A DNA stretch of 62,652 nt, counting the filler, from Sphaeroforma arctica JP610 (Eukaryota): assembly GCF_001186125.1 (NCBI RefSeq). It is 6 parts of 3 records of this genome, joined end to end, with 100 filler letters (N's around TTAATTAATTAA, not from the genome) between each part and the next. Parts side by side here need not be neighbours in the genome. Positions count along the whole stretch, not along the records: positions 1 to 12,659 come from NW_014040556.1; positions 12,760 to 26,591 come from NW_014040556.1; 4 more parts are not named here. One strand, 5' to 3'. Position numbers and translations under genes: made by a program. The stretch's first letter is position 1. Every line of letters starts with the position of its first letter. The notes under the pieces were generated by a model. The model searched no databases, had not been told where the DNA came from, and was given only the letters and a program-made list of their open reading frames with translations. Below are positions 1-26,591 of this stretch, piece by piece.

Positions 1-395
1 GAGAGCCTGGCACCGGTGCCGCCGATACGTTGACGTCCGCCATGGGGCGAGAGAGCCTGGCCCCGGGGCCAGGACGCCCGTCGTGGGTGCGAGAGAAGAG
101 CCTCACCTCTTTTACTAGTGACGATTAATATTTTGTGTTGTTGACCACAATGACGAGAGAGAACCCCCGGGACAGGACTGGCACCCCTGGTGGATGGTAT
201 TTGTGTTACTGAGCACAATGGCGAGCGGCGCAAGCCTGGTGGTGCGGAGTCTCTGAGACCCTGGTGGCGCGGGCTACGGGGTTGATGAAGCCGCCCAGGT
301 CCATGAAGGTCCAGTGCCGGGTGTCCACCAGACCCCTGCCCGCCAGCCCCGTCCCCCAGGCGTGGCTTGGAAAAATAAAAATCATACTTGGACTT

Positions 396-431
396 TTTTC
401 ATTTTCATTTTCATTTTCATTTTCATTTTCA
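396..431 (+). repeat. (TTTTCA)6 tandem repeat upstream of the 983-aa ORF
   Basis: Six exact copies read directly. Confidence 0.9.
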
Positions 432-534
432 TTTCGCCTATATAACCAGCTCCCCCAGACCCCAGAAAGTCACTTTTCACTTCTAGTGTAACTACAACTT
501 CCAAATCCACTCTACTATTCCATTCTATTCTACC

Positions 535-3486
535 ATGTCTGCCCAACAGGAATCCAAGTGGCTCGGCGGCAACGTCCAGCTCTTCAATATTCTCAAGGTC
601 CAGATGGTCGCTGCCCCTCAGCAGCGCGTGGTCCAGTTCGAGAACAAGGGCTGTGTGGACGCCTATGTCAGCACCGTCACCGAGGTCGCGGCCGCCGACC
701 CCGCGCTTGGCCAGATCCGCCACGTGGGCACCGTCGAGTACTACCACCGTCCCGAGGACCAGAGAGTCGTGCTCGCCGGCGGCGGCCACCGTTTCCACAT
801 TACCTTCTGCATCGCCATCGTGCTCCGCTACCTCGGACTCCGCGTCTACTCGCAGTACACGGCCGCCGTCGACGCCGGAGCCGCCACCGATGCCGCGATC
901 GAGGGCGCCATTGACCGGCTGCTCAGTCTCGTGAACGAGCTCGCCAGCTGCTTCGTCCAGCGCGACGACCGGGCCGGCAACTGCACCATGAACTACGTGT
1001 CCAACATGCGGGGCCAAAACCGGTTCCTCCGAGCCCTGGCCTTCTTCCGTCTGCCCGCGGACATGGACGCCGAGGACCTCGATGCCGTTGAGATGTACCC
1101 CCACATTAAGCCCAGCAGCAGGACCCACAACGCCGCCTTTGCCTCCAAGTACTGCCAGGCTTTCGAGGAGGCCTTTTGCGACTCGCGCATGCTGCAGTTC
1201 GCGACCTCGGCCATGTTTGGCTACCGACACTTTAGCATGCCAGTCACCTCGATGCTCAACTGCGACGCCGTCGTGGACATCCTGCACTTTCTCCGTACCG
1301 ACGAGCCCCGCTGGCTGGACGCCTGCGTGGCCACCAGCACCCTGGCCGCCGGCTGTGCCACCGCCATCAAGGTCGAGTCCCTCAAGATGAACCGGCCGTC
1401 GATAATGGACTCCAACAAGTTCCTGTCCCCCCTGACCCCCGCCTGCCGCATCCACTCTGCCATAGTGTCCCGCCTCGGCGCCGTCGCCGACAGCACCGCC
1501 ATCTGCCTCGAGATCAACACGTACATTGACACCATGACCTCGCTGGTGCCGTTCCAGGCGACCACCACCGGGCTGCCCATGGACGCCTCGCAGGTCCAGG
1601 TCATGTACCTGCACGCCTCGCTCTTCAAACACGTCCTGGCCAAGACCATGGCGCTGTCGATCTCGGAGTGCACGGCGCTGGAGAAGGCCAAGTCCACCCC
1701 CGCGGCCTGCGGCGCGTACATGCCCAGGAGCGACACTGCCTGCGAGTTCCTGGCCCTCCGGTACTGCAGCTCGGCCATGGCCGTCAGCTCTCTGATGGCC
1801 GGCGAGGTCCACCGCGGCTTTGCGAACGAGTACCTCTGGAACACGGCCAGCCTGGCGGACCTCGACGCTACGCTTGGCAAGCTGCGGGGCGGCAACTACC
1901 CCACCCTCGTCGCGCCGGTCCTGTCCCTGCTGGAGACCTTCTACTACCGGGTGACGGGTACCCGGACCCGCCTGTGCGCCGCCTACCGGGAGTTTGCCAT
2001 CACCGAGACCTGGGACTACCTGCAGACGCTGCTGGAGCACAGTAGCCATTTTGATGACGAGATCTTTGGTGCCGCACAGTCGGACGAGGACACCGCTGTG
2101 GCCGCCGCCCGCAAGCTCGCGGTCTCGCTGTACGGGGCCTACGAGAACGGACTCCGGAGCCTCGGGGGCAAGGTCTGCGCGTCGCTGCGACAGGCCGGGG
2201 TGGGCGCGCTCGTGGGCGCGGCCCGTCTCTGCGACCGAGACTCGGTGTTCTTCAGCTTTGAGGCCTTCAGGACGCACATCCGGCTGCTCCTGGGGCCCGA
2301 GCTCGCGACTGCGCCGCTGCGGGTGAAGACGGCGGACATTTCGGCCATGTGCGGACAGCTGGCCTCGGAGATTGAGGTTCTGATCAGCCTGGAGCTTGTT
2401 GTGTCCCTCAGTATGCCCCGCCGGGACGGCGACAACGTCAACACGCTCGTCGGGGACGCGCAGGACAAGAACTTCTCTCGGCCGACCCGCGAGCACCTGA
2501 CCTACCCGACCTGGGTGAAGTCCGTGCCGACCACCCAGAAGAGGGCGGTGATCCACCTGGACAGGCTCATGCAGCTGATGCCGTCTGCGAACTGGACCGA
2601 TGAGGACGGCCCAGAGGACGAGGACGACGAGAACACCTGGGGCCTGGACGGCCTCGACGACGGGGACGTGGAGGTCGGCGCTGCGGGGTACGACTTCCCG
2701 CTGCGGACGGCGGCGACGGCGATGATCCTGGCTGGACGCGACCGTGTCCTGGGACTGGCGGGCTTTGACCTCGCGGAGTCGCTGGGCGATGCGACCTACA
2801 AGCTGGCCGCCGAGTCCCTGGTGGCCATCAGCGTCTTCCGCCTCAACGCGTCCAACAAGGTGCTCTACAATGTGCTGCAGCGGGTGCCCGAATACGCCGG
2901 GTCCACCGAGAGCGGCGAGCTGCCCCGCCGCACCCAGGTGCTCAAGTGCGACAACGCCACGGTGACCCTGCCGAAGGGCCTGGCCACCTCGCCGCTCCCG
3001 GTGGGCGACTTTGTGATCCCGTACGACCTGCTGGTCCGCTCGGCTCTGATCCGCACTGGCCGCCGCCGGGACGAGGACTCTGCCGCCTACTGTGCCGTGA
3101 GGGCGCTGCCCATCGCGGACAGGTACGATGCGTTCATGCAGCACGCCCACGAGGCCGTCTCGGTCATCACGTGGGGCGTCTACCTGGAGCTCAAGCGCCT
3201 GTTTGTCTTTTCCTACGGGACCAAGTTTGCGGGCGAGGCCCGGCCGCCGCTAGGGGAGCTCGCGATGGCCAGCACCAGGCCCCAGCACCAAGGCAGGGCC
3301 AAGGCCAAGGCCAAGGCTCCGGCCGCCAGCCGCAAGCGCAAGGCCACGATGCCGGACGTCGAGACGGTGCACCAGCGGTCTCTGAAGGTCAAGCGCCGCA
3401 TCGTGGAGTCGTCGGACGAGGCGAGCGAGGCCGAGGAGGACAGCGACAGCGACTGCGAGGAAATTGGCGAGACGGACAGCGAGTAG
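535..3486 (+). CDS. Large viral hypothetical protein (983 aa); possible remote GmrSD/DUF262-like N-terminus; basic NLS-like then acidic C-tail
   Basis: Long ATG-started ORF with G/C-ending codons, flanked by AT-rich spacers; RKRK and KVKRR followed by D/E tail. The CDS is secure, the function is speculative. Confidence 0.85.
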   Translation: MSAQQESKWLGGNVQLFNILKVQMVAAPQQRVVQFENKGCVDAYVSTVTEVAAADPALGQIRHVGTVEYYHRPEDQRVVLAGGGHRFHITFCIAIVLRYLGLRVYSQYTAAVDAGAATDAAIEGAIDRLLSLVNELASCFVQRDDRAGNCTMNYVSNMRGQNRFLRALAFFRLPADMDAEDLDAVEMYPHIKPSSRTHNAAFASKYCQAFEEAFCDSRMLQFATSAMFGYRHFSMPVTSMLNCDAVVDILHFLRTDEPRWLDACVATSTLAAGCATAIKVESLKMNRPSIMDSNKFLSPLTPACRIHSAIVSRLGAVADSTAICLEINTYIDTMTSLVPFQATTTGLPMDASQVQVMYLHASLFKHVLAKTMALSISECTALEKAKSTPAACGAYMPRSDTACEFLALRYCSSAMAVSSLMAGEVHRGFANEYLWNTASLADLDATLGKLRGGNYPTLVAPVLSLLETFYYRVTGTRTRLCAAYREFAITETWDYLQTLLEHSSHFDDEIFGAAQSDEDTAVAAARKLAVSLYGAYENGLRSLGGKVCASLRQAGVGALVGAARLCDRDSVFFSFEAFRTHIRLLLGPELATAPLRVKTADISAMCGQLASEIEVLISLELVVSLSMPRRDGDNVNTLVGDAQDKNFSRPTREHLTYPTWVKSVPTTQKRAVIHLDRLMQLMPSANWTDEDGPEDEDDENTWGLDGLDDGDVEVGAAGYDFPLRTAATAMILAGRDRVLGLAGFDLAESLGDATYKLAAESLVAISVFRLNASNKVLYNVLQRVPEYAGSTESGELPRRTQVLKCDNATVTLPKGLATSPLPVGDFVIPYDLLVRSALIRTGRRRDEDSAAYCAVRALPIADRYDAFMQHAHEAVSVITWGVYLELKRLFVFSYGTKFAGEARPPLGELAMASTRPQHQGRAKAKAKAPAASRKRKATMPDVETVHQRSLKVKRRIVESSDEASEAEEDSDSDCEEIGETDSE

Positions 3487-3537
3487 TTGGTTGGGTTTTT
3501 GTAGAGTTGATGTTAATAAAAAAAATGTTTGCAAACC

Positions 3538-3680
3538 AAAGTCTTTTGCGCTGTAGTCGGGTATACTTTGTGAATCAATAACTCAATCACTATCAAAGTC
3601 TTTTGCATANNNNNNNNNNNNNNNNNNNNGTCGGTATACTTTGCGAATCAATACACCCAATCACTATGATAAGTCTTTTG
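3538..3680 (+). repeat. Imperfect direct repeat (GTCG(G)GTATACTTTG..AATCAATA..CAATCACTAT..AAGTCTTTTG) either side of a 20-N gap
   Basis: Two similar copies seen; may partly be an assembly overlap. Confidence 0.6.
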
Positions 3681-3783
3681 AGGCACGCCTGCGGGGCTTT
3701 CTCAATAAAGGTCAACATTATAATAATAATAAGAATAATAATAAAAATAATAATATCCCACAAGTCTACTAGTTTATTTTTCA

Positions 3784-4653
3784 TCATGTACACACTAGCA
3801 GGTCGAGGAGGTCGTCACACATGGTGAGGCCGCTTCTGTGTCGTATAATTTCCACCAGGGGCACGTCCGCGACACCGACCCCCAGCCGCCCCCGCGGCAG
3901 GTCGCCGAGGTACAGCGGCAGCTTCGACACCTCCACCGAGACGCTCTCGTCGATTGGCGCAAGGTCCAGCGTGGCCACGTACGCGTCCATCAGCTCCAGA
4001 TGAAGCTTTGGGACATCCATCGGGTAGTGCTTGCTACACATCTGCGCGCAGAGGCCCAGGACCCACGTCGCCGCAATGCCTTTCTGGGGTACCGCACCAC
4101 AGACGTAGCACCTCGTCTCCTGCATCGCCCTCGCGTACTGCGTCCACGTCGCGTACCATGGTGGCATGATGGGGAGTGGGATGCCAAACGCGGCCCGGTG
4201 GTTGTACACGTAGCGCTCCACCGCAAGCGGCGGGGCATCGGGAAGCAGAAGCATAGCCGGAGTCAGCCCGGACCGCTGAATGAGGGCCTCGAGCGCCCAG
4301 TCAGCCACTTCAAACGGCCCCGGCGAGATACTGAGGTTGCACTTTGGCGCCCACGTCCAGAGCGCCTTTACGTGCTGGCCGAGCGCGTCCAAGAGGCCCG
4401 AGAGCTCTAGTCGGAGCTCGAGCCACTGGGCCACATCAAGGCTCGCGTAGCCGTGGTCCTGGAACACGGCCACCGCGTGTAGTGGGTCTTTCCCCGCCAG
4501 GCCCACGACGGCCGCCACGACCTGCGCGGGGAAGGGCACGTAGACGCCGAAGGGGCCGCCGTGGACGCGCTGGCTGTAGATGACCACCGAGCTCAGCGCG
4601 ACAACGCTGTCCACCGTGCACGGCCCGTCCGAACAGTGGAGTGTCATCTGCAT
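3784..4653 (-). CDS. Viral protein with SKP1/BTB-POZ-like N-terminus and a C-terminal Cys/His cluster
   Basis: TLHCSDG..VDSVVALSSVVI..VPFP..VVAAVV..LELSGLLDAL parallels SKP1 (KLQSSDG..VDVEIAKQSVTI..VPLP..ILKKVI..LDIKGLLDVT); CYVC...CAQMCSKH is a putative zinc site. Confidence 0.6.
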   Translation of the reverse strand: MQMTLHCSDGPCTVDSVVALSSVVIYSQRVHGGPFGVYVPFPAQVVAAVVGLAGKDPLHAVAVFQDHGYASLDVAQWLELRLELSGLLDALGQHVKALWTWAPKCNLSISPGPFEVADWALEALIQRSGLTPAMLLLPDAPPLAVERYVYNHRAAFGIPLPIMPPWYATWTQYARAMQETRCYVCGAVPQKGIAATWVLGLCAQMCSKHYPMDVPKLHLELMDAYVATLDLAPIDESVSVEVSKLPLYLGDLPRGRLGVGVADVPLVEIIRHRSGLTMCDDLLDLLVCT

Positions 4654-4724
4654 GCTGTCAATGTCTCCTGTGTAAAACTGACACGCAAGGTGAAATGTCC
4701 CCTGTGTAAAAAGAAAAAAAATAA

Positions 4725-6425
4725 TTAGTCAGAGTCGTCGTTTTCGCTCGCATAATCGCCATAGTTCCGGTCTCGCTTTCGCTCGCGTCGGCCGTGGCCA
4801 GAGGCCGCCATGGCCATAAAGTCCGCGTACATGTCGGGCAGTATGGTGCCCAGCCGGCCTCGGACCATCAGCTCGGCCGGGATGTCTAGCAGCATGAGCC
4901 ACCGCACGTCCATGTTTTTTGTCCTCTCCTGGTTCTCCCCGTACGTGATCAAGACACGGTCTTCGCTGACTGTGCTTGCAATAACCCGTACCAAGCGCGG
5001 GTCTCTGCCGGACACGACTCTGGCCCCAGGCACGAGGTAGGTCTCATAGGCCTCCGCAAACTCGTTGATGGCGCCGGCGTACGCGGTGATCGTCCTCTGG
5101 AGCTGGCGATGTGAGATCGACGCAAAGTAGTCGTGTATCTCGCCCATAGCCAGGTCTGGGAAGGCGACTCGGATGTGCAGGAACAGCATCGTCCACGCGT
5201 TGCAGAAGCCCTCATCCCTTGGATTCCTCAGCTGGGGCCCCGTGGTCGGGCAGGAAAGGTGCAGCGGGACATACCAGAAGCCGAGGTGGCTCAGGCGCTT
5301 CGCCACATAAGCCGACAGCTGGTCGTCCAGTTCCTGCTGCAAGACCCGGTTGTTGCACCCGTGCGGCTCAAAGCGCTCGATTTTCCCCGTGCGCTTATCG
5401 AGGATCAGGGTGTTGGCATGGTCCCAGTCACCTGGCTTGTGGAGATGCATGATTATAAAAATGTAGCGCACGCCATCTTGTGCGTTACACGCCCTTACTA
5501 GTCGCAGCATACCACCCCAGTTCGACAGCCGCCGCGTGTTGGTATTATAAAACAGCTCCAGGGTGCTCACGGACGCACACGCACTGGGGTAGAGTCGTCC
5601 GATAACGTCACGCCACCTGGTGGTGGCCCAGCTCGACGCGTACGTCTCCGCGGTAAGCGCCGTGAAATTCAACTGGTTGTATGTACCGGGAAGAATGGCC
5701 TGCAGCCCGTGCTGTACTGCAACCACGTGTGGCATCTGTAGGAAAACGGACCCCGGGGCTGGGCGCCAGTCGTCAGACACAACCTGTGGCAGTGGGGGTG
5801 AATCGCCGACGTTAACCACCTCGGTGCCGGGCACTGGGGGTTTCTTATACACGGCCTTGAATCTGTCCAGGGCAGCTCGGAATACCGATAAGCCCTTGCG
5901 CCCAACGTCCTCCAGGGCTCTGGTGGCCTCGTTGGGACTGAGAAGCAGCTCTTCTACGTACCTGAGCTGGTAGTAGAAGGTAATATAGGCAAGCGCATTC
6001 CGGGAGGCAAAGGGTGGTACAGTCACCAGGACAATGTTGAAGTCGCCGATCTCGAGCGGCAGGATGTCGTACAGTGCGTCAGCGACCGTCTCCTCCGAAA
6101 ACGGTAGCTCGCCCGAGGTGGGGACCAGGATCTCTATCGTTGCATCGGCGGCAGAGACCACCAGAAGCCCGGCTCGCCATTTCGGGCCACACTGGACCAC
6201 GAGTCTGATTGGGACAAACCGCGGCTCTTGTTCGAGGAACTGTGGGATCCGCCCCAGGAGCTGGGACGTTGTGTCGTCTAAGGGGGCAAACGATTCGAGG
6301 TTGTGTGGATACACGAGTTCTGTGGGGACCAGCGATTCGCGGTCACGCGGATACACGAGTTCTGCGAGAGCAAACCGCCAGAGCCGCGGATGGTGCATGA
6401 CTGCATATCTGGCGAGCGTGGACAT
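4725..6425 (-). CDS. Clan CE (Ulp1-like) cysteine protease, NCLDV type, paralog 1
   Basis: HANTLILD (H336), IERFEPHG (E353), CPTTGPQ (Q398), GFCNAW (C408): the His, acid, oxyanion Gln, Cys order of clan CE. Confidence 0.8.
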   Translation of the reverse strand: MSTLARYAVMHHPRLWRFALAELVYPRDRESLVPTELVYPHNLESFAPLDDTTSQLLGRIPQFLEQEPRFVPIRLVVQCGPKWRAGLLVVSAADATIEILVPTSGELPFSEETVADALYDILPLEIGDFNIVLVTVPPFASRNALAYITFYYQLRYVEELLLSPNEATRALEDVGRKGLSVFRAALDRFKAVYKKPPVPGTEVVNVGDSPPLPQVVSDDWRPAPGSVFLQMPHVVAVQHGLQAILPGTYNQLNFTALTAETYASSWATTRWRDVIGRLYPSACASVSTLELFYNTNTRRLSNWGGMLRLVRACNAQDGVRYIFIIMHLHKPGDWDHANTLILDKRTGKIERFEPHGCNNRVLQQELDDQLSAYVAKRLSHLGFWYVPLHLSCPTTGPQLRNPRDEGFCNAWTMLFLHIRVAFPDLAMGEIHDYFASISHRQLQRTITAYAGAINEFAEAYETYLVPGARVVSGRDPRLVRVIASTVSEDRVLITYGENQERTKNMDVRWLMLLDIPAELMVRGRLGTILPDMYADFMAMAASGHGRRERKRDRNYGDYASENDDSD

Positions 6426-6480
6426 TTTTTTGACTGTATTATTTTATTCCAGAGCTAAAAAGATAATTTGCGCGCCAACC

Positions 6481-8067
6481 CTAAAAAGTTAATGTTTTAG
6501 AGTCTAATGCAACAAAGTCCTCGTACACGTCTGGCAGTACTACTTCCAGCCGGCCCATCGCCATAAGCTCTGCGGGCGGATGTGAAAGCATCAGATGCCC
6601 GACCGGAACCGTCTTTGTCCTTCCGTTGCCTCTCTTTATCAATACCGTGTCATCGTCGCCACTGTACGCTGCTATCACCCACACGCGTGGCGGACCAAGG
6701 GGTAAGACAACTCTGGCCCCATGTACAAAGTGGGTCCTGTAGGCGCTCATAAACAGATTGATGGCCTCGGCGTACCTTGTGATGATGCCGTGTAGCCGGT
6801 GGCGTGAAACGGTATTGAAGAACTCGTGCAGCTCGTCAACCACAAGTCCGGGAAACGCGACCCGCACATGGATAAACAGCAGAGCCCAGGCATTGCAGAA
6901 CCCATTGTCCAAAGTGTCCCTACGCTGAGGGCCGATTCTGGGACAGGCCAGCTCTAGAGGTAGGTAGCGAAACCCAAGGTGGCCCATATACGCAGCAAGG
7001 CTATCCTCCAACTTGTCGATTTTGTAGCTGAACACGCGATGCCCGTGGGGCTCGAAGCGTTCCACGAACCGCGTCTGTGTATCGAACACAAGCATGTTTG
7101 CGTGGTGGGATTCGTTGGATGTGTGGATACTCAGGCTTATAAAGATGTAGCGAACTGCGTCTTGCGCATTACATGCCTCTACGGCTTGTACTGTACCACC
7201 CACGTCCACCAGCTCCTCACTAGTAAGATCATAATACAGCTCGAGATTTGTTATGTCGCGACATGTGCCGGGGTAGAGTTTGCAGATAACGTCAACCCAA
7301 CGTCGCGTGATGTAGGATTTAAAAGAGTCGTCGTCCGGGGACTTAAATTTTAGCACGTTGTAGGTGTCGGGCAGTATCACCTCCAAGCGGTACTGTGCGG
7401 CAAGGAATGCTGGTACCTGCGCAAGAACTGTACGCTCGTCGGTAAGCCAATTGTCCGGCCAGTCGTCTGACATCCTCACCGGCGCCAGCATTGGATGGCC
7501 AACCCGTACCACCGCAGTGTTGTTGACTGGTCGTATCGTATACATGGCCTTGAATCTGTCCAAGGCAGCTTGGAATACAGATAAGCCCTCGCGCCCAATG
7601 TCACCCAGGACTCTGGTGGCCTCGCCTGGACTCAAAAGCAGCTCTTCTACGTACCGGAGCTGGTAGTATAGGGTAATATAGGCAAGCGCGTTCCGTGCGG
7701 CAAAGGGTGGTACAGTCACCAGGACAATGTGTTTGTGCGACACTTCGATTTGCAGGCTACGAGCCAGGGCCCTTGCGATAGTGACCTTGCTAAAAGGTAG
7801 CTCACGCACGGTTGTGACAAGGATCTCAACGACTTTATCAAGGGCAGAGATTACCACGAGCCCGGCGCGCCATTTCCCGTTTATTTCAACTAGGAGTCTC
7901 ATCGGAACAAACCTTGGCTTCGTTTTGAGGTGTGGGCGTATGAACTGGACTACCGTGTCGTCGAAGGGAGCAAACGCCTCCTGGTCCCGCCGGTACACGA
8001 GCTCCGTCAGCGCAAGCTGCGAGAGCTTGGGGTGGTGCATGACTACATATCGCGTAAGGGTGGACAA
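6481..8067 (-). CDS. Clan CE (Ulp1-like) cysteine protease, paralog 2 (TTG at the paralogous start; first ATG at 8040)
   Basis: HANMLVFD, VERFEPHG, CPRIGPQ, GFCNAW; collinear with paralog 1 along the whole length, e.g. YQLRYVEELLLSP is identical. Confidence 0.8.
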   Translation of the reverse strand: MSTLTRYVVMHHPKLSQLALTELVYRRDQEAFAPFDDTVVQFIRPHLKTKPRFVPMRLLVEINGKWRAGLVVISALDKVVEILVTTVRELPFSKVTIARALARSLQIEVSHKHIVLVTVPPFAARNALAYITLYYQLRYVEELLLSPGEATRVLGDIGREGLSVFQAALDRFKAMYTIRPVNNTAVVRVGHPMLAPVRMSDDWPDNWLTDERTVLAQVPAFLAAQYRLEVILPDTYNVLKFKSPDDDSFKSYITRRWVDVICKLYPGTCRDITNLELYYDLTSEELVDVGGTVQAVEACNAQDAVRYIFISLSIHTSNESHHANMLVFDTQTRFVERFEPHGHRVFSYKIDKLEDSLAAYMGHLGFRYLPLELACPRIGPQRRDTLDNGFCNAWALLFIHVRVAFPGLVVDELHEFFNTVSRHRLHGIITRYAEAINLFMSAYRTHFVHGARVVLPLGPPRVWVIAAYSGDDDTVLIKRGNGRTKTVPVGHLMLSHPPAELMAMGRLEVVLPDVYEDFVALDSKTLTF

Positions 8068-18022: not shown

Positions 18023-21000
18023 TCACGCCCGGATCTTCGGGAAAATCTTCGTGGTCACACCCAGCGCCGCCAGGTTGTGCATCAGCAGCTTGAACACGTA
18101 CGGGATGACTATCCGGACTGTCTGCGAGGTATCGCAAATCGCACAGCTGTCCCGTTGCGAGTTGACTATGTTGCCGCACACTGAGCAGATCACCATCGAG
18201 TACTTGTCGCTGCACTCGAGCGCCTTGTCCACTAGCATTGACGACGCCCCGTGCGCTGACAAGCAACTCAGTTCCATTTCCCCCAAGCGGAGCGCGCCGT
18301 TGCTCGACCGCCCGCTCAGCGGCTGGCGCGTAATGGCCTTGACCGACCCCACCGACCGGCTGTAGATCTTGTCCGCCACCAGGTGCTTGAGTCGGTGGTA
18401 GAAGGTCGGCGCCATGAATATCGGGGTCTCAATCTTCTGCCCCGTCGTCCCGTCGTACATGATGCACGTCCCCTCGGAACTGTACCCGGCGGCCACCAGC
18501 TCCTCCTTTGCACTCTCCACATAGTTCTCGGTCCCGTTCCAGGCCGTCTTGTTCACGCGGCTGATCCCCGCTGTCAGCGCCGCAATGCTGTGCGCGCCCT
18601 CGAGGATCTGGCTCAGCGTCATGCGCGACGGCAGCGCGCACGGGTTGAGGATGAGGTCGGGGATCACACCGTCCGCCGTAAAGGGCATGTCCTCGTGCGA
18701 CACAATCAGCCCGATGGTGCTCTTCTGCGCCGATCGCGAGCAGAACTTATCGCCGACCTCCGGAACGCGCAGCTCACGGATGATAACCTTGACACAGCTG
18801 TTGCCCTTGCGCGTCTTGAACGTGATCGTGTCGTGCACGACGGGGAACCGGTCCTTGGTCGTGAAGGCCACCGACTTGTCTGTGATCACATCCCCGACCC
18901 GCGCGTAGCGGCCCACGAGCACCGTGTCGACCTGCAGCCTGGTCCCGATCCGCACTATGCCCGTGTCCGGGTCCAGCGCGCTAAAGTCCAGGTGCTTCTT
19001 GCGGTAGGTCTCTGGGGGCACCCCGATGGTCACGCTCTTCTCCTGGGCGAGCGAGATGTCGTCAGCTGCAATTGTGCGCATCGTGTATGCGTAGAACATC
19101 CCCTTGTCAATAGCGGACTTGGAGATGATGATGGCATCCTCCTGGTTGAACCCCATGTACGGTGCCACCGCTACCATCGCGTTGTTGCCCGAGACCATGC
19201 GGTCCAGGTACAACGCACTGGAAACGTCGCTGTCCACGATGGGGACCTGGCCATTGACCAGGTAGTGCGTGGTGGTCTCGCACGCGTCCTCGAGGCTGTC
19301 GTACAGCCACGAGATGGCCTGCTTGCCCATGTTGGAGTAGTAGGTGACGCGCGGCGACTGGTTGGTCTCCACGAACGGCACAATTGAGCTCATGACCCCG
19401 AGCAACGCGGCGGGGTGTATCTCCATGTACCGCGTCGCATCGGTGATATCGTTCGCCACCATGGCGACGACCTCGTTCTCGAGTTCACACACGGTCCGGT
19501 ACACGATGACGCCCTCGGCCACGAGCTCGTCAAACAGGTCGTCGGTTTTTTCCCAGACCACTCTGGGCCTGTCCCGGTCCATAATGTCCTTGAGCCGCTG
19601 GCGGGCGCCAATGTCAACCAGCGGGCGGATCATGCGCCCCTCGTCGCACAGGACGCTGATGGTCCGTCGGCCGTCCATGTGCACGGACGTGTGTGGGTGG
19701 ACGAGCTTGCGGGTGCGCCAATCGCGAAAGACCGCCAGGAAGGCGTCCGGGGAGTCGTCGAGCGCAAACACGGGCCGGTTGTTGAGCGTCACGACGGTGG
19801 TCCCGGCCTCTATCGCGCCCGGGGCGGTGCGCTCGGTGCCGAGGCCGTCCACCAGCCGCCGCAGCGTCATCAGGACGTGCGTAAAGTTCTGCTCCTCCGT
19901 CACCTCGGTGGTCAGCGCAAAGTTCTTGACGAGGCCGACGGTGGCGCCCTCGGGCGTCTCGCAGTGGTCAATGAAAAAGTTTCCCGAGAAGTGCACGCTG
20001 CGCACGTCCGAGTTCTTGAGCTCCTTGCTGCACGGCTGCACGACGCGCTTCATGTAGCTCAGGGCGCTCGTGTAGCTTATGCGACCCAAGATCTGCGAGA
20101 CGCCCGCCCGCACGTACGTCGAGCGGATCGCGCACCAGTTGCCGGTGCTGAAGCTGTACTGGATGCACTTGGTCAGGTTGTTGTACCGACTAAGGATGTT
20201 GGCGAGCGAGATGTTTGCGTTGCTGGAGGTCGCAATGTTGCGCGCGAAGCGCTTGAACGAGATCTTGAACAGGCTCTTGAGCAGCGTGCCCGAAACTTCT
20301 ATTCGTTTGTTCGCATAATGATCCCGGGAGTCGGGCGGCCGCGCGCCGATCAGGGTCTTGAACCCGCGGTTGAACATGTCCAGCACCGCGATCACGCAGT
20401 CGCCCCGCTTGATGTACTGCCCGAGGTGCGGGAACAGCTCCTCCTCGACCACGCGCTTGATCTCAATGTTGGTCCTTGCGCCCTTGGTGCAGGTCGGGTG
20501 CGGCGCGCCGGCCTCGAGGTGCAGCGTGTACCCGCGGACGAAGCGCTCCAGCAGCACGCGGTTCTTCTGGTCCACGGGCCGATCAACGTGGGCCCAGAAC
20601 TCGTCGACGCCAATGTCCAGCATGCCCAGGAGCTGGTACATGTCAATGGTCTGGTTGACACACGGGACAACGTAGGTCGCACTGAGGCTAAAGTCCTTGA
20701 CGCACAGCAGCATCTTGTTAAGGGCGCTGTGCGACGTAGCACTGGACATGCTGCGCATCTCCACGGTCACCGCGCCGTGCTTGAGCAGGCACAGAGGGAC
20801 GTTGTAGGCCATGCGCTCCTGCGACACGAGCACGCGCTCCTTGCCCCGGATGATAAAGTAGCCCTTGAGGTCGGTCTCGGACACGGTGGGCAGCGTGGCG
20901 TAGCGCGTGTTGCACAGCTTGGAGCCGACCATGATGGGCAGTTTCATGAACGGGTAGCGGCAGACCTGGCCGACGTTGTCGCGACTGGTCTGTATGCGTA

Positions 21001-21274
21001 TGTCCACGTACACGGTGCCGTCATAGGAGATGTCGCGCATCTTGGCCTCGCGGGGTGTCAGGTAGTGGATCTTGCGGTTGTCGTCGACAATGGTCGGGCG
21101 CTCGACGACAATGTTCGTAAATGCAAAGTCGCAGTTCTTGTTGTCGGCGCGAATGACGTTGCGGGTCTCGGTCTCAATGACGTTCCGCAGACCCTCCGAC
21201 ACAAACAGGTCAAACGAGCTCAGGTGGACCTCGTAGACGGACCGCGTGTGCAGATAGCTCTTGAGAATCTCCAT
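18023..21274 (-). CDS. RPB2: DNA-directed RNA polymerase second-largest subunit, viral
   Basis: GYFIIRGKERV, ETPEG, NQSPR, FNQEDA, GDKFCSRSAQK, PDLILNP...PSRMT, YHRLKHLVADK, TRQP..GR...GALRLGEME, C-terminal CxxC..CxxC; intronless, 1083 aa. Confidence 0.97.
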   Translation of the reverse strand: MEILKSYLHTRSVYEVHLSSFDLFVSEGLRNVIETETRNVIRADNKNCDFAFTNIVVERPTIVDDNRKIHYLTPREAKMRDISYDGTVYVDIRIQTSRDNVGQVCRYPFMKLPIMVGSKLCNTRYATLPTVSETDLKGYFIIRGKERVLVSQERMAYNVPLCLLKHGAVTVEMRSMSSATSHSALNKMLLCVKDFSLSATYVVPCVNQTIDMYQLLGMLDIGVDEFWAHVDRPVDQKNRVLLERFVRGYTLHLEAGAPHPTCTKGARTNIEIKRVVEEELFPHLGQYIKRGDCVIAVLDMFNRGFKTLIGARPPDSRDHYANKRIEVSGTLLKSLFKISFKRFARNIATSSNANISLANILSRYNNLTKCIQYSFSTGNWCAIRSTYVRAGVSQILGRISYTSALSYMKRVVQPCSKELKNSDVRSVHFSGNFFIDHCETPEGATVGLVKNFALTTEVTEEQNFTHVLMTLRRLVDGLGTERTAPGAIEAGTTVVTLNNRPVFALDDSPDAFLAVFRDWRTRKLVHPHTSVHMDGRRTISVLCDEGRMIRPLVDIGARQRLKDIMDRDRPRVVWEKTDDLFDELVAEGVIVYRTVCELENEVVAMVANDITDATRYMEIHPAALLGVMSSIVPFVETNQSPRVTYYSNMGKQAISWLYDSLEDACETTTHYLVNGQVPIVDSDVSSALYLDRMVSGNNAMVAVAPYMGFNQEDAIIISKSAIDKGMFYAYTMRTIAADDISLAQEKSVTIGVPPETYRKKHLDFSALDPDTGIVRIGTRLQVDTVLVGRYARVGDVITDKSVAFTTKDRFPVVHDTITFKTRKGNSCVKVIIRELRVPEVGDKFCSRSAQKSTIGLIVSHEDMPFTADGVIPDLILNPCALPSRMTLSQILEGAHSIAALTAGISRVNKTAWNGTENYVESAKEELVAAGYSSEGTCIMYDGTTGQKIETPIFMAPTFYHRLKHLVADKIYSRSVGSVKAITRQPLSGRSSNGALRLGEMELSCLSAHGASSMLVDKALECSDKYSMVICSVCGNIVNSQRDSCAICDTSQTVRIVIPYVFKLLMHNLAALGVTTKIFPKIRA

Positions 21275-21327
21275 TCTGTTTTATTTTCGAGTACAACCAC
21301 ACTCAGGCACAGGTGGAGTTTCGGTAT

Positions 21328-21335
21328 TCAATTTT
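21328..21335 (-). promoter_or_regulatory. AAAATTGA, NCLDV early-promoter-like octamer about 55 nt upstream of RPB2
   Basis: TCAATTTT on the plus strand; exact match to the mimivirus early promoter motif at a plausible distance; single instance in an AT-rich tract. Confidence 0.5.
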
Positions 21336-21405
21336 TTATTTTACCACGCGTGACAAAATAAAAAAGTATAAAAGGGGCGCGCACAAGCAAAAACGCTCAC
21401 AACTC

Positions 21406-22083
21406 ATGTGCACATCTACAGAACACATCAGTCTCGACATGGCCAACCTCACCAAGTTCTCGGTCTTTGGCTCGTGTGGGCGCCTGCTGCTCAGCACCAA
21501 CCGGATGTCCACGGAGCTGCTGCAGAACCTGCTAAAGACCAGGCCCACGTACATTGACTGCCGCGAGTTTATGGACGACTGCCCTCCGGAGATGACGGCA
21601 ACGTCTGTGGTGCCAACCGAGCCCGACAAGTGGGAGTTTGTGGTCGCGTCGAACACGGCCGAGCTGCCGCCGAACCGCACGTTCCCGCAGTTTGGGGGCC
21701 CGGTGATTGTAGCCCGCAAGCTGGCCTACGACCCGCTGCAGGTCCAGTTCCGCAAGCGTGTCAAGGCGCTGCACGAGCGGCGCATCCGGCCGGTCTCGCG
21801 AAAGTTTCGGATCCCGCCCACGGTGGGGCGCCGCCTCTCGACGGTCTACGAGACGTTCCACGAGCTGCACGAGGGGTCGCTGAAGCAGGGGGTCCCAGAG
21901 ATCCGCATCTCCTGCTATGACGGGCCGCTGGTCATTCCAGTGGAAGCCATCCCGCTGCCAGTGGAGGTGGCGGACTCAAAGGTCGAGTCGCCCGTGGAGG
22001 TGCCGGACCTCGGAGAGAATGTGGACACTCGCGATTGCTGGTACGGGGTGACACACGCAAAGCTGCAGTACGCCTCTATGTAA
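21406..22083 (+). CDS. Viral hypothetical protein (about 225 aa; alternative ATG 21439)
   Basis: G/C-ending codons, divergent from RPB2, stop followed by a poly-A tract. Confidence 0.75.
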   Translation: MCTSTEHISLDMANLTKFSVFGSCGRLLLSTNRMSTELLQNLLKTRPTYIDCREFMDDCPPEMTATSVVPTEPDKWEFVVASNTAELPPNRTFPQFGGPVIVARKLAYDPLQVQFRKRVKALHERRIRPVSRKFRIPPTVGRRLSTVYETFHELHEGSLKQGVPEIRISCYDGPLVIPVEAIPLPVEVADSKVESPVEVPDLGENVDTRDCWYGVTHAKLQYASM

Positions 22084-22117
22084 ATAAAAAAAACAATAAA
22101 AATAATACATTTAAAAA

Positions 22118-23062
22118 CTACACGTACACTGCATCAGACACCACCTTTGATATTTTCTTTGCGTAACCAGCACCCTTGTACTCGCGCAGCACGTTGCCGG
22201 ATAGATAGATGCGGGTTGTCGGGAACGCCACAATGTCCTGGTTGAGGTCCTGGTATTTTGCGTTGACCAGTGCGAATCGCACATTGTCGCCGTACCGCTC
22301 GGTCTGTGTAAGGGCCACCTGCTCAAGACCGGGCAAGAAGGTCGCACAGGCGCTGCAGCCGTCCATCGTGTGTGTCACAACCACCACCTTGTGGGAGCTC
22401 AGCACCGCGGCCAGCTGTTCATGGGTCTCCAGCATCAGGAAGGGGCCGTTGGTTGCGATCTGGGGCGTATTGGTCAGCGTGGACGGGTCCTGTGTCGCGT
22501 AGTTGAGGCCCCCTTGAGAGGTCGAGTACTGGGGGTTCGAGTACGACGGGCCCGAGTACGTGTTGGGATGCTGGCCGCCGTCGGGCGTGGGGTACTTGTT
22601 GGTATTTGGTCGCGAAGGATGGTGTGTGGTGCTTGGTTGCGAAGTATACGGTACTGTGGTGCTTGGGTCGGCGGTCATGTCCAGCGCCCGGATGGAGACG
22701 CCCCCGTTGACGCGCCGGTCGCCGGCGGCCATGGGCGTCGTGCGGTCGTTGACGCCGTACTGGGTGCGCTCAGCCTCGGTCATCCGCACAATCTTGCCGC
22801 CCCGCAGCTCCTTGGGCAGGTACTTTTCAAACTCCGAGTAGTCGCCCGTGTCCTGGAAGAGCGTGTCGTTGGGCGCGTACGGTGCGGCACTCCCCCCCGT
22901 CATGTCATGGTGGACCTTTTGCTGTTGTACATTGTGGTACTGGTACTGCCCCTCCTGCGTGTGCTGTCGCTGGTTGTCCTGCATATCGTACATGGCGTTT
23001 CGGCGCTCGTCGTTGCGGACTGGCTCAGGCGCGTTGCGCACGTCGCCGATTTTCTTGTACAT
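22118..23062 (-). CDS. Thioredoxin-domain protein with long low-complexity N-terminus
   Basis: VVVTHTMDGCSACATFLP (CxxC), VRFALVN, IVAFPTTRIYLSG (cis-Pro loop). Confidence 0.85.
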   Translation of the reverse strand: MYKKIGDVRNAPEPVRNDERRNAMYDMQDNQRQHTQEGQYQYHNVQQQKVHHDMTGGSAAPYAPNDTLFQDTGDYSEFEKYLPKELRGGKIVRMTEAERTQYGVNDRTTPMAAGDRRVNGGVSIRALDMTADPSTTVPYTSQPSTTHHPSRPNTNKYPTPDGGQHPNTYSGPSYSNPQYSTSQGGLNYATQDPSTLTNTPQIATNGPFLMLETHEQLAAVLSSHKVVVVTHTMDGCSACATFLPGLEQVALTQTERYGDNVRFALVNAKYQDLNQDIVAFPTTRIYLSGNVLREYKGAGYAKKISKVVSDAVYV

Positions 23063-23116
23063 GTTGCCGTTGTTTGTGCATAGCCCCGGGCCTCTTAAAC
23101 CAAATTTTGTCTTTGC

Positions 23117-23857
23117 CTAGTAAAACATCATCGGGTTGGCCTTTGGCTTCCGCATGGCCACTGCAACAACAATGATGATGAAAAACAGGAACAGGGTCAC
23201 CCCGCCGCCTATAAAGAGCCACGTCTGCAGCCTCAGGGGGCCGTACTCCTTGTCCAGGGCGCTGACCTCCTCTGCCCCCGTTTCGGTGGCCCCAGCGGCT
23301 GGCACTGCACCCGCGGCTGCACCCGCGGCTGGCGCGGCTGCGCCTGCGACCGGTGCCACGGGCGCCTGCACGCAGGCGAACGGGCCCGTGGCCGAGTCAA
23401 ACGTCAGCACGACCTGGGTGATGGGCGTGGCCTCTGCGTCCACGACCAGCTCCGCCGTCAGCGGGTCCAGCCCCAGCACGTCCGTGGTGCCGGTGATCCC
23501 AATCCCGGTGGCCGTGGCCGTGGCCGTGGTGGCCGTCGTGTTGTTTGCAACCACAACGCCCTTGAGGGTGAGCAGGATCCCCTGTGTTGTGGGAGTATCT
23601 ATCTCTGGCACGATGCGGTTTTCGACACGCTTCATAAGGTAGGTCACCACGGGGGTTGCGGCAGTTGTGGCCAGCATGCGCACATTGAACTCACAGGCCG
23701 TTCCACTGGCAGTCGCCGGATCGCCCTCGAACACAAACTTGGACGCCACGAGGGTCGCCCCCGTCCGCGTGGTTGTCTCAAACATGGTCTTGTCAGCACT
23801 AAGATCCAGGGCCTGACCATTGATGGTGAGCGTAAAGGTCGCCAGGGTCGACGCCAT
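23117..23857 (-). CDS. Thr/Ala-rich protein with C-terminal transmembrane helix (candidate virion membrane protein)
   Basis: WLFIGGGVTLFLFFIIIVVAVAM followed by RKPK. Confidence 0.75.
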   Translation of the reverse strand: MASTLATFTLTINGQALDLSADKTMFETTTRTGATLVASKFVFEGDPATASGTACEFNVRMLATTAATPVVTYLMKRVENRIVPEIDTPTTQGILLTLKGVVVANNTTATTATATATGIGITGTTDVLGLDPLTAELVVDAEATPITQVVLTFDSATGPFACVQAPVAPVAGAAAPAAGAAAGAVPAAGATETGAEEVSALDKEYGPLRLQTWLFIGGGVTLFLFFIIIVVAVAMRKPKANPMMFY

Positions 23858-23957
23858 GGTGTTTTGTTATCTTGGAAATAAAAATATTAAAAAATCGTAT
23901 AAGTACCGTGTTTTTATTATTGTCAGTTCACAACTACAGAGAGGAGCAACAGACAAC

Positions 23958-24362
23958 ATGGTCGCAACTACCACTACCCCCGAGCCGTTCCACATCAAGA
24001 CCTTCACGCGGGAGCGCCTCAGCGGCGTGGAGGCCATCGCCGCCTGCAAGTCGCACCACTACGTCTTTGTCCGCGGCGGGCGTGCAGACGGACCCGGTGC
24101 CGTGGACTGGGGTGTCCTCAGCGACGTGTTTACAATGCACTCGGGCATCTCGCAGCGCAAGTTTGTCCTCGTCGTTGTCAGCCCCGACATCGTCTCGTCC
24201 CACGCGTCACTGGCCCAGAGCGTGCACGCCGCCGATGCACCCCTCGCCCGCTTCCACGTGCTGCTGGTCGGGTACACGCAGGGTACCCTGGACGCGCTCT
24301 GCCGCGACGAGGGCGCGCACATCGAGGACCTGGTCTCGCTCTCGAGCGCCGAGGTTGTTTAG
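23958..24362 (+). CDS. Viral hypothetical protein (134 aa)
   Basis: ATG in ACAACATG context after an AT-rich spacer; G/C-ending codons. Confidence 0.65.
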   Translation: MVATTTTPEPFHIKTFTRERLSGVEAIAACKSHHYVFVRGGRADGPGAVDWGVLSDVFTMHSGISQRKFVLVVVSPDIVSSHASLAQSVHAADAPLARFHVLLVGYTQGTLDALCRDEGAHIEDLVSLSSAEVV

Positions 24363-24375
24363 GTCTCGACATGAT

Positions 24376-24867
24376 CTACCAGAGCACACTCTGCGTGGAC
24401 CGGTTCCTAAACATGCCCATGTCGAGGTGGCCACTGGATACCGGGGCATCCAGAGAGTCGCTGAGGGTGGTCAGGATTAGGCGGGGCGTCTCACGCAGGC
24501 GGATGTCGGACGGTCGGACCCGGGCTACGAGGTGGGGGTTCGTGGGCTTGCTGGACGTGGTGCGATCGAATCGCCGGGAGGTGTACGGGGACCCGTACCT
24601 GTAGAGGTGCTCAAAGTTTGTCGTGGATCGGGTGGCGGTCGGGTACTGTGGTACAGGTGTGGACGGCGACTGGCGGCGCGACGGGCGAGTGCGGTTGCCT
24701 TGCTCGTCCGGCAAGTCATTGTAGTCCACTGTGTATATGGACGACTGCCGGCGCCGGGACTGGCGGGACTGGCGGCGGACGGCATCGTCGCTGCTACTAT
24801 CCGTGTATTTGTCCTTGGACTGTTTCCCGGGCGTCAGGGCCTTCTTGAGTTTCTTGAATATACCCAT
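24376..24867 (-). CDS. Basic Ser/Arg-rich viral protein (163 aa, MGIFKKLKK...)
   Basis: Start reassigned to the ATG after an A-rich leader; RRQS repeats. Confidence 0.6.
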   Translation of the reverse strand: MGIFKKLKKALTPGKQSKDKYTDSSSDDAVRRQSRQSRRRQSSIYTVDYNDLPDEQGNRTRPSRRQSPSTPVPQYPTATRSTTNFEHLYRYGSPYTSRRFDRTTSSKPTNPHLVARVRPSDIRLRETPRLILTTLSDSLDAPVSSGHLDMGMFRNRSTQSVLW

Positions 24868-25209
24868 GGCGGCTTTTTGTTTCTCACATATAATGCGCCA
24901 AATGTGTTTCACGGGTCGGATAACGTGTCGTGAACCAGCAAACCGAAAATCAAGCTTTGGATAATGGTCTGCAGAATAAATAAATAAAATATAAAATGGA
25001 CAAGTGTACTTTGTGCTCGCCCGTAGGTTCTTGCACCATCGCGCGCGCGTGTGTTTCAGGGGCTGGCCCCGCCCCCCGTCCAATTGTCTCGTTCTGCCCG
25101 TCGCTTGCCGGCTCCGAGGTGTTCTTCTACTACCCGCGGAGCCCCGACCCTCCCGTTAGACGGGCGCCATTGAGAAAAGTCCTGTGCGCCGCGCGCCGCG
25201 GACCAGAGA

Positions 25210-25881
25210 CTAGTCCAGTGGCAGCAGATCTCTATAGGTGTAGTAATGCATGTGGAACATTTTCCCCTCGTACCCGTGAATGTCCTTGACAATTGCGTTT
25301 GCGGCCCGGTAGAACGCAAACCTCGGCGACTCGGGGTCGGTGTCAGCCACCAGGGTGTTTGCTCTGAGTGGCTCAAAGGCCTTGAAGGTCTTGATGATGA
25401 ACCGTTCAATCTTGCTGCGCCGCTCGGGTGACACCTGCATCACAAAGTCCACAAACTGTCGGTCTACGCTGAGTAAAAACATGCCCACCGGGGCGATGAG
25501 CACATGGTACTTGAGCCCGTCCGTGATCGTTGCCTGCAACGTGTACAGAAAGTCCGTGCCCGAGAACCACCCGTACGGCATCGCGGCCTTTGTGGTCTGC
25601 GGGTGCGTGTGGAAGACCAGCTTCTCATACCGGGGCATGTGGACCTCGCCCATGGTGCCATAGTTTGTCGGCTCCACCCAGACCTCGTGGGGCCCGTTGC
25701 CGTCTCCCGGCACGCCGGACGTCGTCACGATCCCCGCGGTCTCCTCGGTGAGCAGCAGCAGCTCGATGCACTGCACAAGGGTCTCTTGCCGGATGTAGAA
25801 CGGCTTCCTGGTCCCCACGCGGTTCATCGGGCAGTTCGGGTCGCCACACAGGCCGTGCTTCACCTTGTCTAGATTCCCCAT
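25210..25881 (-). CDS. JAB/MPN+ (JAMM) metalloprotease, NCLDV type
   Basis: EETAG ... FHTHP ... GWFSGTD gives E, HxH, SxxD; HVLIAPVGMF downstream strand. Confidence 0.8.
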   Translation of the reverse strand: MGNLDKVKHGLCGDPNCPMNRVGTRKPFYIRQETLVQCIELLLLTEETAGIVTTSGVPGDGNGPHEVWVEPTNYGTMGEVHMPRYEKLVFHTHPQTTKAAMPYGWFSGTDFLYTLQATITDGLKYHVLIAPVGMFLLSVDRQFVDFVMQVSPERRSKIERFIIKTFKAFEPLRANTLVADTDPESPRFAFYRAANAIVKDIHGYEGKMFHMHYYTYRDLLPLD

Positions 25882-25985
25882 TTTTTTTTTATAGTTTCAT
25901 GAATGCAGAATAAAAAAAAATGAAATGCGCTGCGCACACATACTCGTACAGACCACCACACACACAAAAAAAAACAAGAATCACC

Positions 25986-26591
25986 ATGGGACTCGTCAAA
26001 GACTCGAGCAACATTTCCATAGGCACCGGGGCCGGGGGCGCCCGACAGGGGCGGGAGGCCATCGCCATAGGCACGGGCGCGGGCGCCGTGGAGCAGGGCG
26101 ACTTTGCCCTCGCGCTGGGCACGCGCGCCGGCGCAGCGGGGCAGGGGACCTGCGCTATCGCCATAGGCCCCAAGACCTGTGTCGAGCAGCAGCACAGCCA
26201 CAGCATCGTGCTCAACGCCAGCGGCCGCGACATCGCCTCCGTATGCGAGGGGGCACTGCACATTGCGCCCGTCCACGAGACCGAGTCGCCACATGCGCTG
26301 TACTACCGGCCGGCCACGGGCGAGATCGTGTCCTCCGGCAACGCGCTGCCGCTCGTCGACATCAAGAGCGCGACGGTGCTGGCCGGCGGCATGCTGGACA
26401 TTGAGCTGACCGACAACCAGCACCATCTGCTGAACCTGTCGCCAGAACCGGGTGCCCGGGGGCCCGCGGGCACCTCGGGCGGCTACCACCTCGAGACGCG
26501 GCAGCTCTGGGAGCTCAGCGCGCAGTGCCCGTCGGCGTACAAGCTCCCGCCGCAGGCGCCAACCACCGCACCCATTCCTTCCTCACCCTTC
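25986..26591 (+). CDS. Second, short YadA-like fibre paralog, 3' truncated
   Basis: Four AIAIG..AG...QG repeats, SIVLNASG..LHIAPV..ALYYRPATGEIV connector, short Gly-X-Y run. Confidence 0.8.

What the first reader, a model, noticed from the sequence alone, without database searches (positions are those of the whole stretch)
1..26591. Probable endogenous giant virus of an unusual GC-rich lineage in a microsatellite-rich eukaryote
Seen: 26 kb of intronless viral-style genes including RPB2. Inference: the AQK variant of the RPB2 GDKF motif, the RGD.PI.P protein, the FHTHP JAMM and the thioredoxin suggest an irido/marseille-like (Pimascovirales) affinity, while the host genes (KANSL2-like, VEPH1-like) suggest a holozoan. 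That pairing could be a new virus-host lineage. The virus/host junction itself is an artificial spacer, so linkage is not shown.
Basis: partly seen in the sequence, partly recalled or inferred. Interest (0 to 1): 0.9.

Follow-up and report, generated by a model that had tools for sequence, protein, structure and literature searches.

The report
Giant-virus DNA kept in a protist
Two pieces (26 kb in all) of a giant-virus genome from a deep, unnamed branch of the order that holds iridoviruses turn up in 16 years of sequencing runs, in four of them at about 1.6 to 3.5 times the depth of the eukaryote's own DNA, so they are likely inherited as part of a host chromosome, although no join to host DNA is shown.

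Summary
The viral DNA is real, but it is two unlinked contigs (1-12659, 12760-26591), not one block, and it meets host DNA only at a spacer. The 1083-aa RPB2 is intact. It sits with Pimascovirales anchors (PM_01 genomes, iridoviruses; 100/99). Grouping with cellular Pol II or Imitervirales is rejected (p-AU 1e-83, 3e-56), and so is a place inside the iridovirus clade (0.004). Its nearest relative is 39-42% identical. A P11-like capsid protein (DUF5850), a fibre, two Ulp1-like proteases and a JAMM-like protein have relatives beside Pimascovirales-type RPB2 genes. The DNA is in 20 of 24 listed runs (7 studies, 2009-2025). In four runs it lies at 1.6-3.5 times host depth, and five SNPs swap between runs in a way no clonal tree explains. 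This fits about two near-identical, stably inherited copies, likely integrated (0.6); a low-copy episome is the main rival (0.25). No call tested the host lineage. Irido/Marseille-type genes were reported in Sphaeroforma in 2017, so a holozoan pairing may not be new.

The parts
1..12659 (.). Viral contig C1 (59% GC, 88% coding)
   Evidence: covered in 30 of 30 bins by each of 4 runs
12760..26591 (.). Viral contig C2 (61% GC, 92% coding)
   Evidence: stretch 17000-26500 held at half or more by 20 of 24 listed runs
1..70 (.). End of a collapsed 50-bp tandem array at very high depth; host satellite or viral repeat, not resolved
   Evidence: joint 'goes back 50'; bin 1-422 depth 5639 against about 211 in X10; one 49-bp contig at 2810 against about 84 in X9
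535..3486 (+). 983-aa ORFan, GC3 0.90
   Evidence: no Pfam, NCBIfam or locus hit
3533..3760 (.). Collapsed short tandem repeat around a 20-N gap
   Evidence: loose ends and raised depth in all four runs
3784..4653 (-). 289-aa ORFan
4725..6425 (-). Likely Ulp1-like (clan CE) cysteine protease of a giant-virus family, paralogue A
   Evidence: 51% identical to paralogue B; homologue in L136, E 5e-10; H, D/E, Q, C kept
6481..8040 (-). Likely Ulp1-like cysteine protease, paralogue B
   Evidence: L136 E 1e-13; Atlas nearest clusters mostly Nucleocytoviricota, feature score 0.88 (lead only), structure TM 0.74 by target
8097..9431 (-). 444-aa ORFan
9516..9620 (.). Host-type compound microsatellite with a (GT)36 core (9540-9611) in an intergenic gap between viral genes
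   Evidence: 0 dinucleotide runs of 30 bp or more in 4.0 Mb of 384 fetched loci, 6 in 35 kb of host
9668..11389 (-). 573-aa ORFan
11583..12194 (+). DUF5850 protein, likely a P11-type minor capsid protein
   Evidence: Pfam E 1.4e-44; Atlas P11_C clusters at 0.92-0.93, 100% viral; weak homologue beside the RPB2 of L126
12294..12659 (+). ORF cut by the contig end
   Evidence: a contig of run X3 goes on about 2 kb past 12659
12660..12759 (.). Artificial spacer N44-TTAATTAATTAA-N44
13038..13712 (+). Low-complexity ORF with a weak C2H2 finger; overlaps the next gene by 98 nt
   Evidence: Zap1_zf1 E 0.033, under the cut-off
13615..17790 (+). 1391-aa repeat fibre-like protein (YadA-head-like repeats, C-terminal S74 chaperone domain)
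   Evidence: Pfam; homologues in 4 loci, L024 E 2e-73, L062 (PM_01) E 4e-52
18023..21274 (-). Viral RNA polymerase second-largest subunit (RPB2), intact
21406..22083 (+). 225-aa ORFan
22118..23062 (-). Thioredoxin-domain protein (CxxC)
   Evidence: Pfam E 4.8e-7
23117..23857 (-). 246-aa protein with a C-terminal membrane anchor
   Evidence: GG_III-CTERM E 3e-4, under the cut-off
23823..24362 (+). 179-aa ORFan
24376..24867 (-). 163-aa basic ORFan
25210..25881 (-). JAMM-like motif protein (E, HTH, SxxD)
   Evidence: one homologue, directly behind the RPB2 of L016, E 1e-7; no family or fold match
25920..26591 (+). Second fibre-repeat gene, cut by the contig end
   Evidence: 37-40% identical to repeats of 13615-17790
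26592..26691 (.). Artificial spacer between viral and host contigs; not a junction

Best explanation
These are two contigs of one giant-virus genome from a deep, unnamed branch of Pimascovirales, likely integrated in the nuclear genome of a cultured, intron-rich eukaryote and likely present as about two near-identical copies that are passed on with the host. Shown: viral gene layout; RPB2 placement; persistence across runs; depth ratio; SNP pattern. Inferred: part or all of the viral genome entered a host chromosome, probably by non-homologous repair (no integrase was seen in these 26 kb), and was duplicated or inserted twice. Open frames, viral GC3 and no CpG loss point to a recent insertion. 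In the virus, RPB2 would be part of its own RNA polymerase, the P11-like protein and fibres part of the virion, and the protease pair and JAMM-like protein would remove ubiquitin-like tags (all predicted). The host is likely an ichthyosporean such as Sphaeroforma; this is a guess from genome traits and the literature, not a test.
For: RPB2 lies with PM_01 genomes and iridoviruses in a 14-row clade at 100/99, with P0394 at 100/100; same picture under LG+C20 with 44 rows (quick tree) and FastTree with 251 rows. AU rejects Pol II (1e-83), Imitervirales (3e-56) and the Allomyces-type RPB2 (3e-50). Anchors come from the S1 table of PMC8575486. Four further gene types have homologues near such RPB2 genes. 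C2 is held by 20 of 24 listed runs, 7 studies, 2009-2025. All 4 runs laid cover C1 in 30 of 30 bins at a near-flat depth in three of them. Viral/host depth: 2.19 (X10), 1.56-1.94 (X3), 1.64 (X9), 3.2-3.5 (X12). Five SNPs at 626-4719 differ between runs; 5 of 10 pairs show all four combinations, as expected if each assembly picks one of two co-existing copies; the host stretch showed no SNP. A (GT)36 run sits between viral genes. RPB2 keeps 88 of 95 near-invariant columns, like its relatives (88-94).
Against: No contig or read joins viral to host DNA. Depth is of assembled contigs, which the tool says is no copy number; GC differs (60% against 45-49%), so library bias can raise the ratio; the host comparison is only 0.9 kb in X10 and X9; X12 gives over 3 and varies twofold along C1; X10 may be the source of the window. 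C2 depth was not measured, and C1-C2 linkage rests on co-occurrence and composition. No decay, introns, transposons or CpG loss (CpG o/e 1.02-1.03), which fits a free or episomal genome equally well. The microsatellite control is biased because short-read assemblers break at such repeats. The SNP pattern also fits a mixed virus population or pooled strains. Placement rests on one long-branch, compositionally odd gene, with no marseillevirus or pithovirus reference; PMC13524828 warns of Imitervirales RPB2 paralogues that branch next to Pimascovirales. PMC11244446 found no reliable giant-virus hit in S. arctica.
Confidence: 0.6

Rival explanations
1. A persistent, non-integrated virus: the genome is kept as a low-copy episome or a carrier-state infection in the culture.
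For: All long frames are open, viral GC is kept and no junction is seen. The ratio is not constant (1.6-3.5). Virion genes are present.
Against: A ratio near 2 in three studies and presence over 16 years need tight copy control; a (GT)36 run is host-like; no RNA holder was listed, which is no evidence either way.
Confidence: 0.25
2. One integrated copy, with the twofold depth and the SNPs coming from GC bias, ploidy or differences between strains.
For: GC differs by about 15 points; X3 gives only 1.56 against the long host contig; no SNP was listed between 4720 and 12659.
Against: 5 of 10 SNP pairs break the four-gamete rule; the host stretch had no SNP in the run that covered it fully; depth does not rise with GC inside C1.
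Confidence: 0.1
3. A contaminant: a virus of a co-cultured organism, or stray DNA in one library.
For: The contigs are unlinked to host DNA; composition differs sharply.
Against: Held by runs of 7 studies from 2009 to 2025 under three coded organism labels, and co-present with the host contig in all four runs laid.
Confidence: 0.04
4. A cellular origin: a divergent host Pol II/III subunit, or a bacterial or archaeal contig.
For: PDB matches score archaeal RpoB and Pol II alike (about 465 bits).
Against: AU rejects grouping with Pol II at 1e-83; DUF5850/P11 clusters are 100% viral; best matches among 1.84 billion representatives fall in the viral clade.
Confidence: 0.01

Closest known systems
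Iridoviridae/Marseilleviridae-cluster ('IrMa') core genes in Sphaeroforma arctica and S. sirkka (PMC5294986; Table 1 and sections 3.2, 3.3 read whole; Fig. S5 not seen)
   Same: Same viral order, in a eukaryote assembly; read there as inserts of larger viral fragments (2 of 5 markers in S. arctica, 4 of 5 in S. sirkka).
   Different: That study used PolB, MCP, ATPase, D5 and VLTF3, not RPB2, and described small islands amid host genes. Whether this window is the same element or the same host genus was not tested.
Pimascovirales family PM_01 and Iridoviridae PM_02 (PMC8575486; passages and S1 table rows)
   Same: RPB2 clade; fibre and DUF5850 homologues beside RPB2 in PM_01 genomes (L062, L126).
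   Different: The window's RPB2 forms its own 5-7-member clade of unnamed sequences (35-42% identity), outside the iridovirus clade; 59-61% GC against 27-58% for the PM_01 rows seen; PM_01 was known only from metagenomes.
Giant endogenous viral elements of the ichthyosporean Amoebidium appalachense (PMC11244446; passages, methods section 19, Table S4/S5 rows)
   Same: Intronless, gene-dense giant-virus blocks in an intron-rich genome of an animal relative.
   Different: Those are Mamonoviridae-related (pandoravirales) and silenced by 5mC. This one is Pimascovirales and shows no CpG loss.
PBCV-1 minor capsid protein P11 family (Pfam P11_C; PMC6344570 seen as search listing only)
   Same: Atlas feature neighbours of 11583-12194 at 0.92-0.93.
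   Different: Direct Pfam assignment is DUF5850; no PDB match by sequence.

Membership tests
Nucleocytoviricota | Own multisubunit RNA polymerase grouping with viral, not cellular, RPB2 | tested here: met
Nucleocytoviricota | Dense, intronless gene layout with many ORFans | tested here: met
   88-92% coding; 14 of 18 ORFs without a Pfam hit at E 0.01
Nucleocytoviricota | Phylum-specific virion protein | tested here: met
   DUF5850 / P11-like
Nucleocytoviricota | MCP, PolB, A32 ATPase, VLTF3, D5 primase-helicase | not testable with these tools
   none among the 18 ORFs of the window; no whole genome held
Pimascovirales | RPB2 inside the clade of PM_01 and Iridoviridae, apart from Imitervirales | tested here: met
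   100/99; AU against Imitervirales 3e-56; anchors
Pimascovirales | Placement by the 7-gene concatenated marker set | not testable with these tools
   only one marker gene lies in the window
Iridoviridae | RPB2 inside the iridovirus clade | tested here: not met
   p-AU 0.004; a sister position of the whole 5-member clade is not rejected, p 0.125
Marseilleviridae / pithoviruses | RPB2 inside these clades | not tested
   no named reference was returned; Foldseek ranking was not decisive
PM_01 | RPB2 nested among PM_01 genomes | tested here: inconclusive
   unresolved fork; PM_01 as one clade without the query is not rejected, p 0.20; sister to a PM_01 g120 clade only in FastTree at 0.89
Giant endogenous viral element | Physical junction with host DNA | tested here: inconclusive
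   window joins are spacers; no host-like extension shown; left end enters an unassigned high-copy array
Giant endogenous viral element | Depth close to host depth and stable between samples | tested here: inconclusive
   1.6-2.2 in three runs, 3.2-3.5 in one
Giant endogenous viral element | Inherited across independent samples and years | tested here: met
   20 of 24 listed runs, 7 studies, 2009-2025
Giant endogenous viral element | Host marks (introns, transposons, decay, CpG loss, microsatellites) | tested here: inconclusive
   one (GT)36 run; no introns, stops or CpG loss
JAMM/MPN+ metalloprotease | E...HxH-x7-S-x2-D motif on an MPN fold | tested here: inconclusive
   residues kept but spacing is 13-15, not 7 (canonical spacing recalled); no profile or fold match
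Holozoan (ichthyosporean) host | Host genes grouping with Holozoa | not tested
   only domain hits: zf-C3Hc3H, WW; the one host gene searched had bacterial best hits

The most novel reading that the evidence does not exclude
A complete or near-complete, still intact provirus of an undescribed Pimascovirales family sits in two copies in a laboratory-cultured close relative of animals, probably Sphaeroforma, which is reported to lack 5mC. It would give a metagenome-only branch next to the iridoviruses its first culturable host, could be induced to make virions, and would show that a giant provirus can be tolerated without cytosine methylation.
Probability: 0.17. Interest if true: 0.88.

Novelty: new member of a known kind. 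Interest (0 to 1): 0.56.

Why it matters
Most Pimascovirales diversity (PM_01, 64 genomes in PMC8575486) has no known host. A stably inherited copy in a much-sequenced cultured eukaryote ties one deep branch to a host and makes latency and silencing testable with existing cultures and reads. If the host is Sphaeroforma, it also bears on a conflict in print: viral core genes reported in 2017 (PMC5294986) against no reliable giant-virus hit in 2024 (PMC11244446), where lack of 5mC was linked to lack of such elements.

Tried and rejected
Whole-genome search for MCP, PolB, A32 and VLTF3: no genome held. One read-laying across viral and host contigs was not possible because of the spacer; viral and host stretches were laid apart. 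No RNA holder listed: no evidence on expression. Holes in host cover in X10, X12 and X9 are not read as absence. Four rows with 0.00-0.02 of the words are not counted. Naming close RPB2 relatives by cluster look-up: 30 proteins asked, no virus named. Foldseek on BFVD ranked a mimivirid, an ascovirus and pithoviruses alike. JAMM-like fold failed, pLDDT 33; no PDB match. Protease profile against PDB gave only E 0.7. DUF5850 scan of IMG/VR found nothing. No tRNA genes. A host exon chosen to place the host gave bacterial hits only. A published GC value for Sphaeroforma was not found. The careful LG+C20 tree did not finish; its quick tree is cited. Trees dropped rows under 70% cover and rows over 60-75% identical to a kept row (383 to 198, then 195 and 251 rows; 44 and 24 hand-picked for IQ-TREE). 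AQK as a diagnostic motif was rejected as not exclusive. Earlier scan notes: none on this genome or sequence; eight on other genomes, not used.

Full report
Layout. The window is six contigs joined by the spacer N44-TTAATTAATTAA-N44. The finding covers two of them: C1 (1-12659) and C2 (12760-26591). Their GC is 59% and 61%; the four other contigs are 43%, with introns, (AT)n and (AC)n runs and retroelement remains. Neither C1-C2 nor C2-host is a real join. No whole genome is held.

Genes. Eighteen long ORFs without introns cover 88% of C1 and 92% of C2, with AT-rich gaps (45% GC) and GC3 of 0.59-0.93. Four of 18 have a Pfam hit at E 0.01: RPB2, DUF5850, thioredoxin and a fibre-like protein with YadA-head repeats and an S74 domain. 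The DUF5850 protein's nearest Atlas clusters are P11-type minor capsid proteins, all viral. Two tandem paralogues (4725-6425, 6481-8040; 51% identical) keep His, Asp/Glu, Gln and Cys in clan-CE order (order recalled) and resemble a giant-virus Ulp1-like family. The FHTHP protein shares E, HxH, S and D with one homologue that lies directly behind the RPB2 of L016; its fold could not be modelled. Against 383 fetched loci, 6 of the 17 non-RPB2 ORFs had a tblastn hit at E 1e-3, in loci fetched for their RPB2; L062 and L126 among them belong to PM_01 genomes.

RPB2. It is whole: 1083 aa, zinc-finger cysteines present, 88 of 95 near-invariant columns kept, against 88-94 in eight relatives; the model has mean pLDDT 80.6. 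The best match among 1.84 billion representatives is P0394 (39% over the length, 42% in the trimmed alignment), an unnamed protein on a 5.4-kb contig. Named anchors came from matching loci to the S1 table of PMC8575486: eleven GVMAG loci are PM_01, two are Imitervirales, and three isolate contigs have the exact lengths of iridovirus genomes. In the careful 24-row tree the query joins P0394 (100/100), then P0422, L096 and P0397 (100/100), inside a 14-row clade with PM_01 and an iridovirus (100/99). The 44-row mixture-model quick tree and the 251-row FastTree agree on this. AU tests reject Pol II (1e-83), Imitervirales (3e-56), the Allomyces-type RPB2 (3e-50) and a place inside the iridovirus clade (0.004); they do not reject the small clade as sister of iridoviruses (0.125) or PM_01 as a clade without it (0.20). 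Limits: one gene, a long branch with odd composition, and no marseillevirus or pithovirus row. So: Pimascovirales, family open, not Iridoviridae.

Persistence and depth. The stretch 17000-26500 is held at half or more of its words by 20 of 24 listed runs from 7 studies, 2009-2025; one is marked as a possible source. Four of these runs (4 of 20, four studies) were laid on C1 and cover 30 of 30 bins, so C1 and C2 occur together. The same four were laid on host 28850-36150. Length-weighted ratios are 2.19 (X10), 1.64 (X9), 1.56 (X3; 1.94 against the piece shared by all runs) and 3.46 (X12). These are contig depths, the host side is only 0.9 kb in X10 and X9, and GC differs, so they show 'same order as the host', not a copy number. 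A lytic bloom or a one-off contaminant would not be expected to give this.

Two copies. Five single-letter differences at 626-4719 each appear in only some runs; 5 of 10 pairs show all four combinations, which one clonal tree cannot give. Two of the four coding ones are silent and none makes a stop. The host stretch showed none (full cover only in X3). The simplest reading is that each sample holds two near-identical viral copies and each assembly keeps one letter at random. This matches the twofold depth. A mixed virus population would look the same.

Host marks. A (GT)36 run lies between two viral genes. There is no dinucleotide run of 30 bp or more in 4.0 Mb of fetched loci, against 6 in 35 kb of host; assembler bias weakens this control. 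There is no CpG loss, no intron and no premature stop. C1 starts in a collapsed 50-bp array at tens of times the viral depth; it may be a host satellite at a junction or a viral repeat.

Host. No call placed it. zf-C3Hc3H and WW domains were confirmed, VEPH1 was not. Intron density, microsatellites and run assemblies of about 100 million letters fit the 84-121 Mb ichthyosporean genomes (PMC5560861, passages), but this is a guess.

Literature. PMC5294986 reports Iridoviridae/Marseilleviridae-cluster core genes in Sphaeroforma arctica and S. sirkka and reads them as inserts. PMC11244446 describes Mamonoviridae-related elements in Amoebidium, found no reliable ViralRecall hit in S. arctica, and reports that it lacks 5mC. 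Nine paper searches showed no paper that describes this element's gene content or lineage; unseen supplements may.

Verdict. A real giant-virus genome fragment of a deep Pimascovirales branch, stably kept with its eukaryote; likely integrated in about two copies (0.6), possibly episomal (0.25). It is a new member of a known kind of element, and the virus-host pairing may have been glimpsed in 2017. Interest 0.56.

Noticed in passing
window 30479-30853 (+): Host exon of an NAD(P)H-hydrate epimerase whose 120 listed hits carry only bacterial names where named (best 60-63%, many cyanobacterial): a likely bacterial gene transfer into the host.
   Followed up: partly
window 1-70: Collapsed GC-rich 50-bp tandem array at tens of times the viral depth; a second unique flank appears in run X10. 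Candidate junction or terminal repeat.
   Followed up: partly
window 13038-13712 and 13615-17790: A C2H2 finger ORF, with what looks like a cut second finger, overlaps the fibre gene start by 98 nt, and the fibre begins straight in a repeat: a possible rearrangement point.
   Followed up: partly
window 8066 and 11515: One-base differences in intergenic T runs, shown by all four runs: likely assembly errors of the window.
   Followed up: yes
window 40958-41754 and 56272-58363: Copia-like and LINE-like remains in host contigs (recognised by eye; no Pfam hit).
   Followed up: no
window 60079-61800 (+): Host gene with several WW-domain exons (two confirmed).
   Followed up: partly
window 32340-34273 (-): zf-C3Hc3H (KANSL2/INO80D-type) host gene.
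   Followed up: partly
L096 1636-4488 (-): The locus of a close RPB2 relative is 29% GC and has a 950-aa MutS-like gene (by eye) near RPB2; it shares no other gene with the window.
   Followed up: no
P0394: Nearest RPB2, from an unnamed NCBI contig of 5.4 kb; whether it lies in another eukaryote assembly could not be seen.
   Followed up: partly
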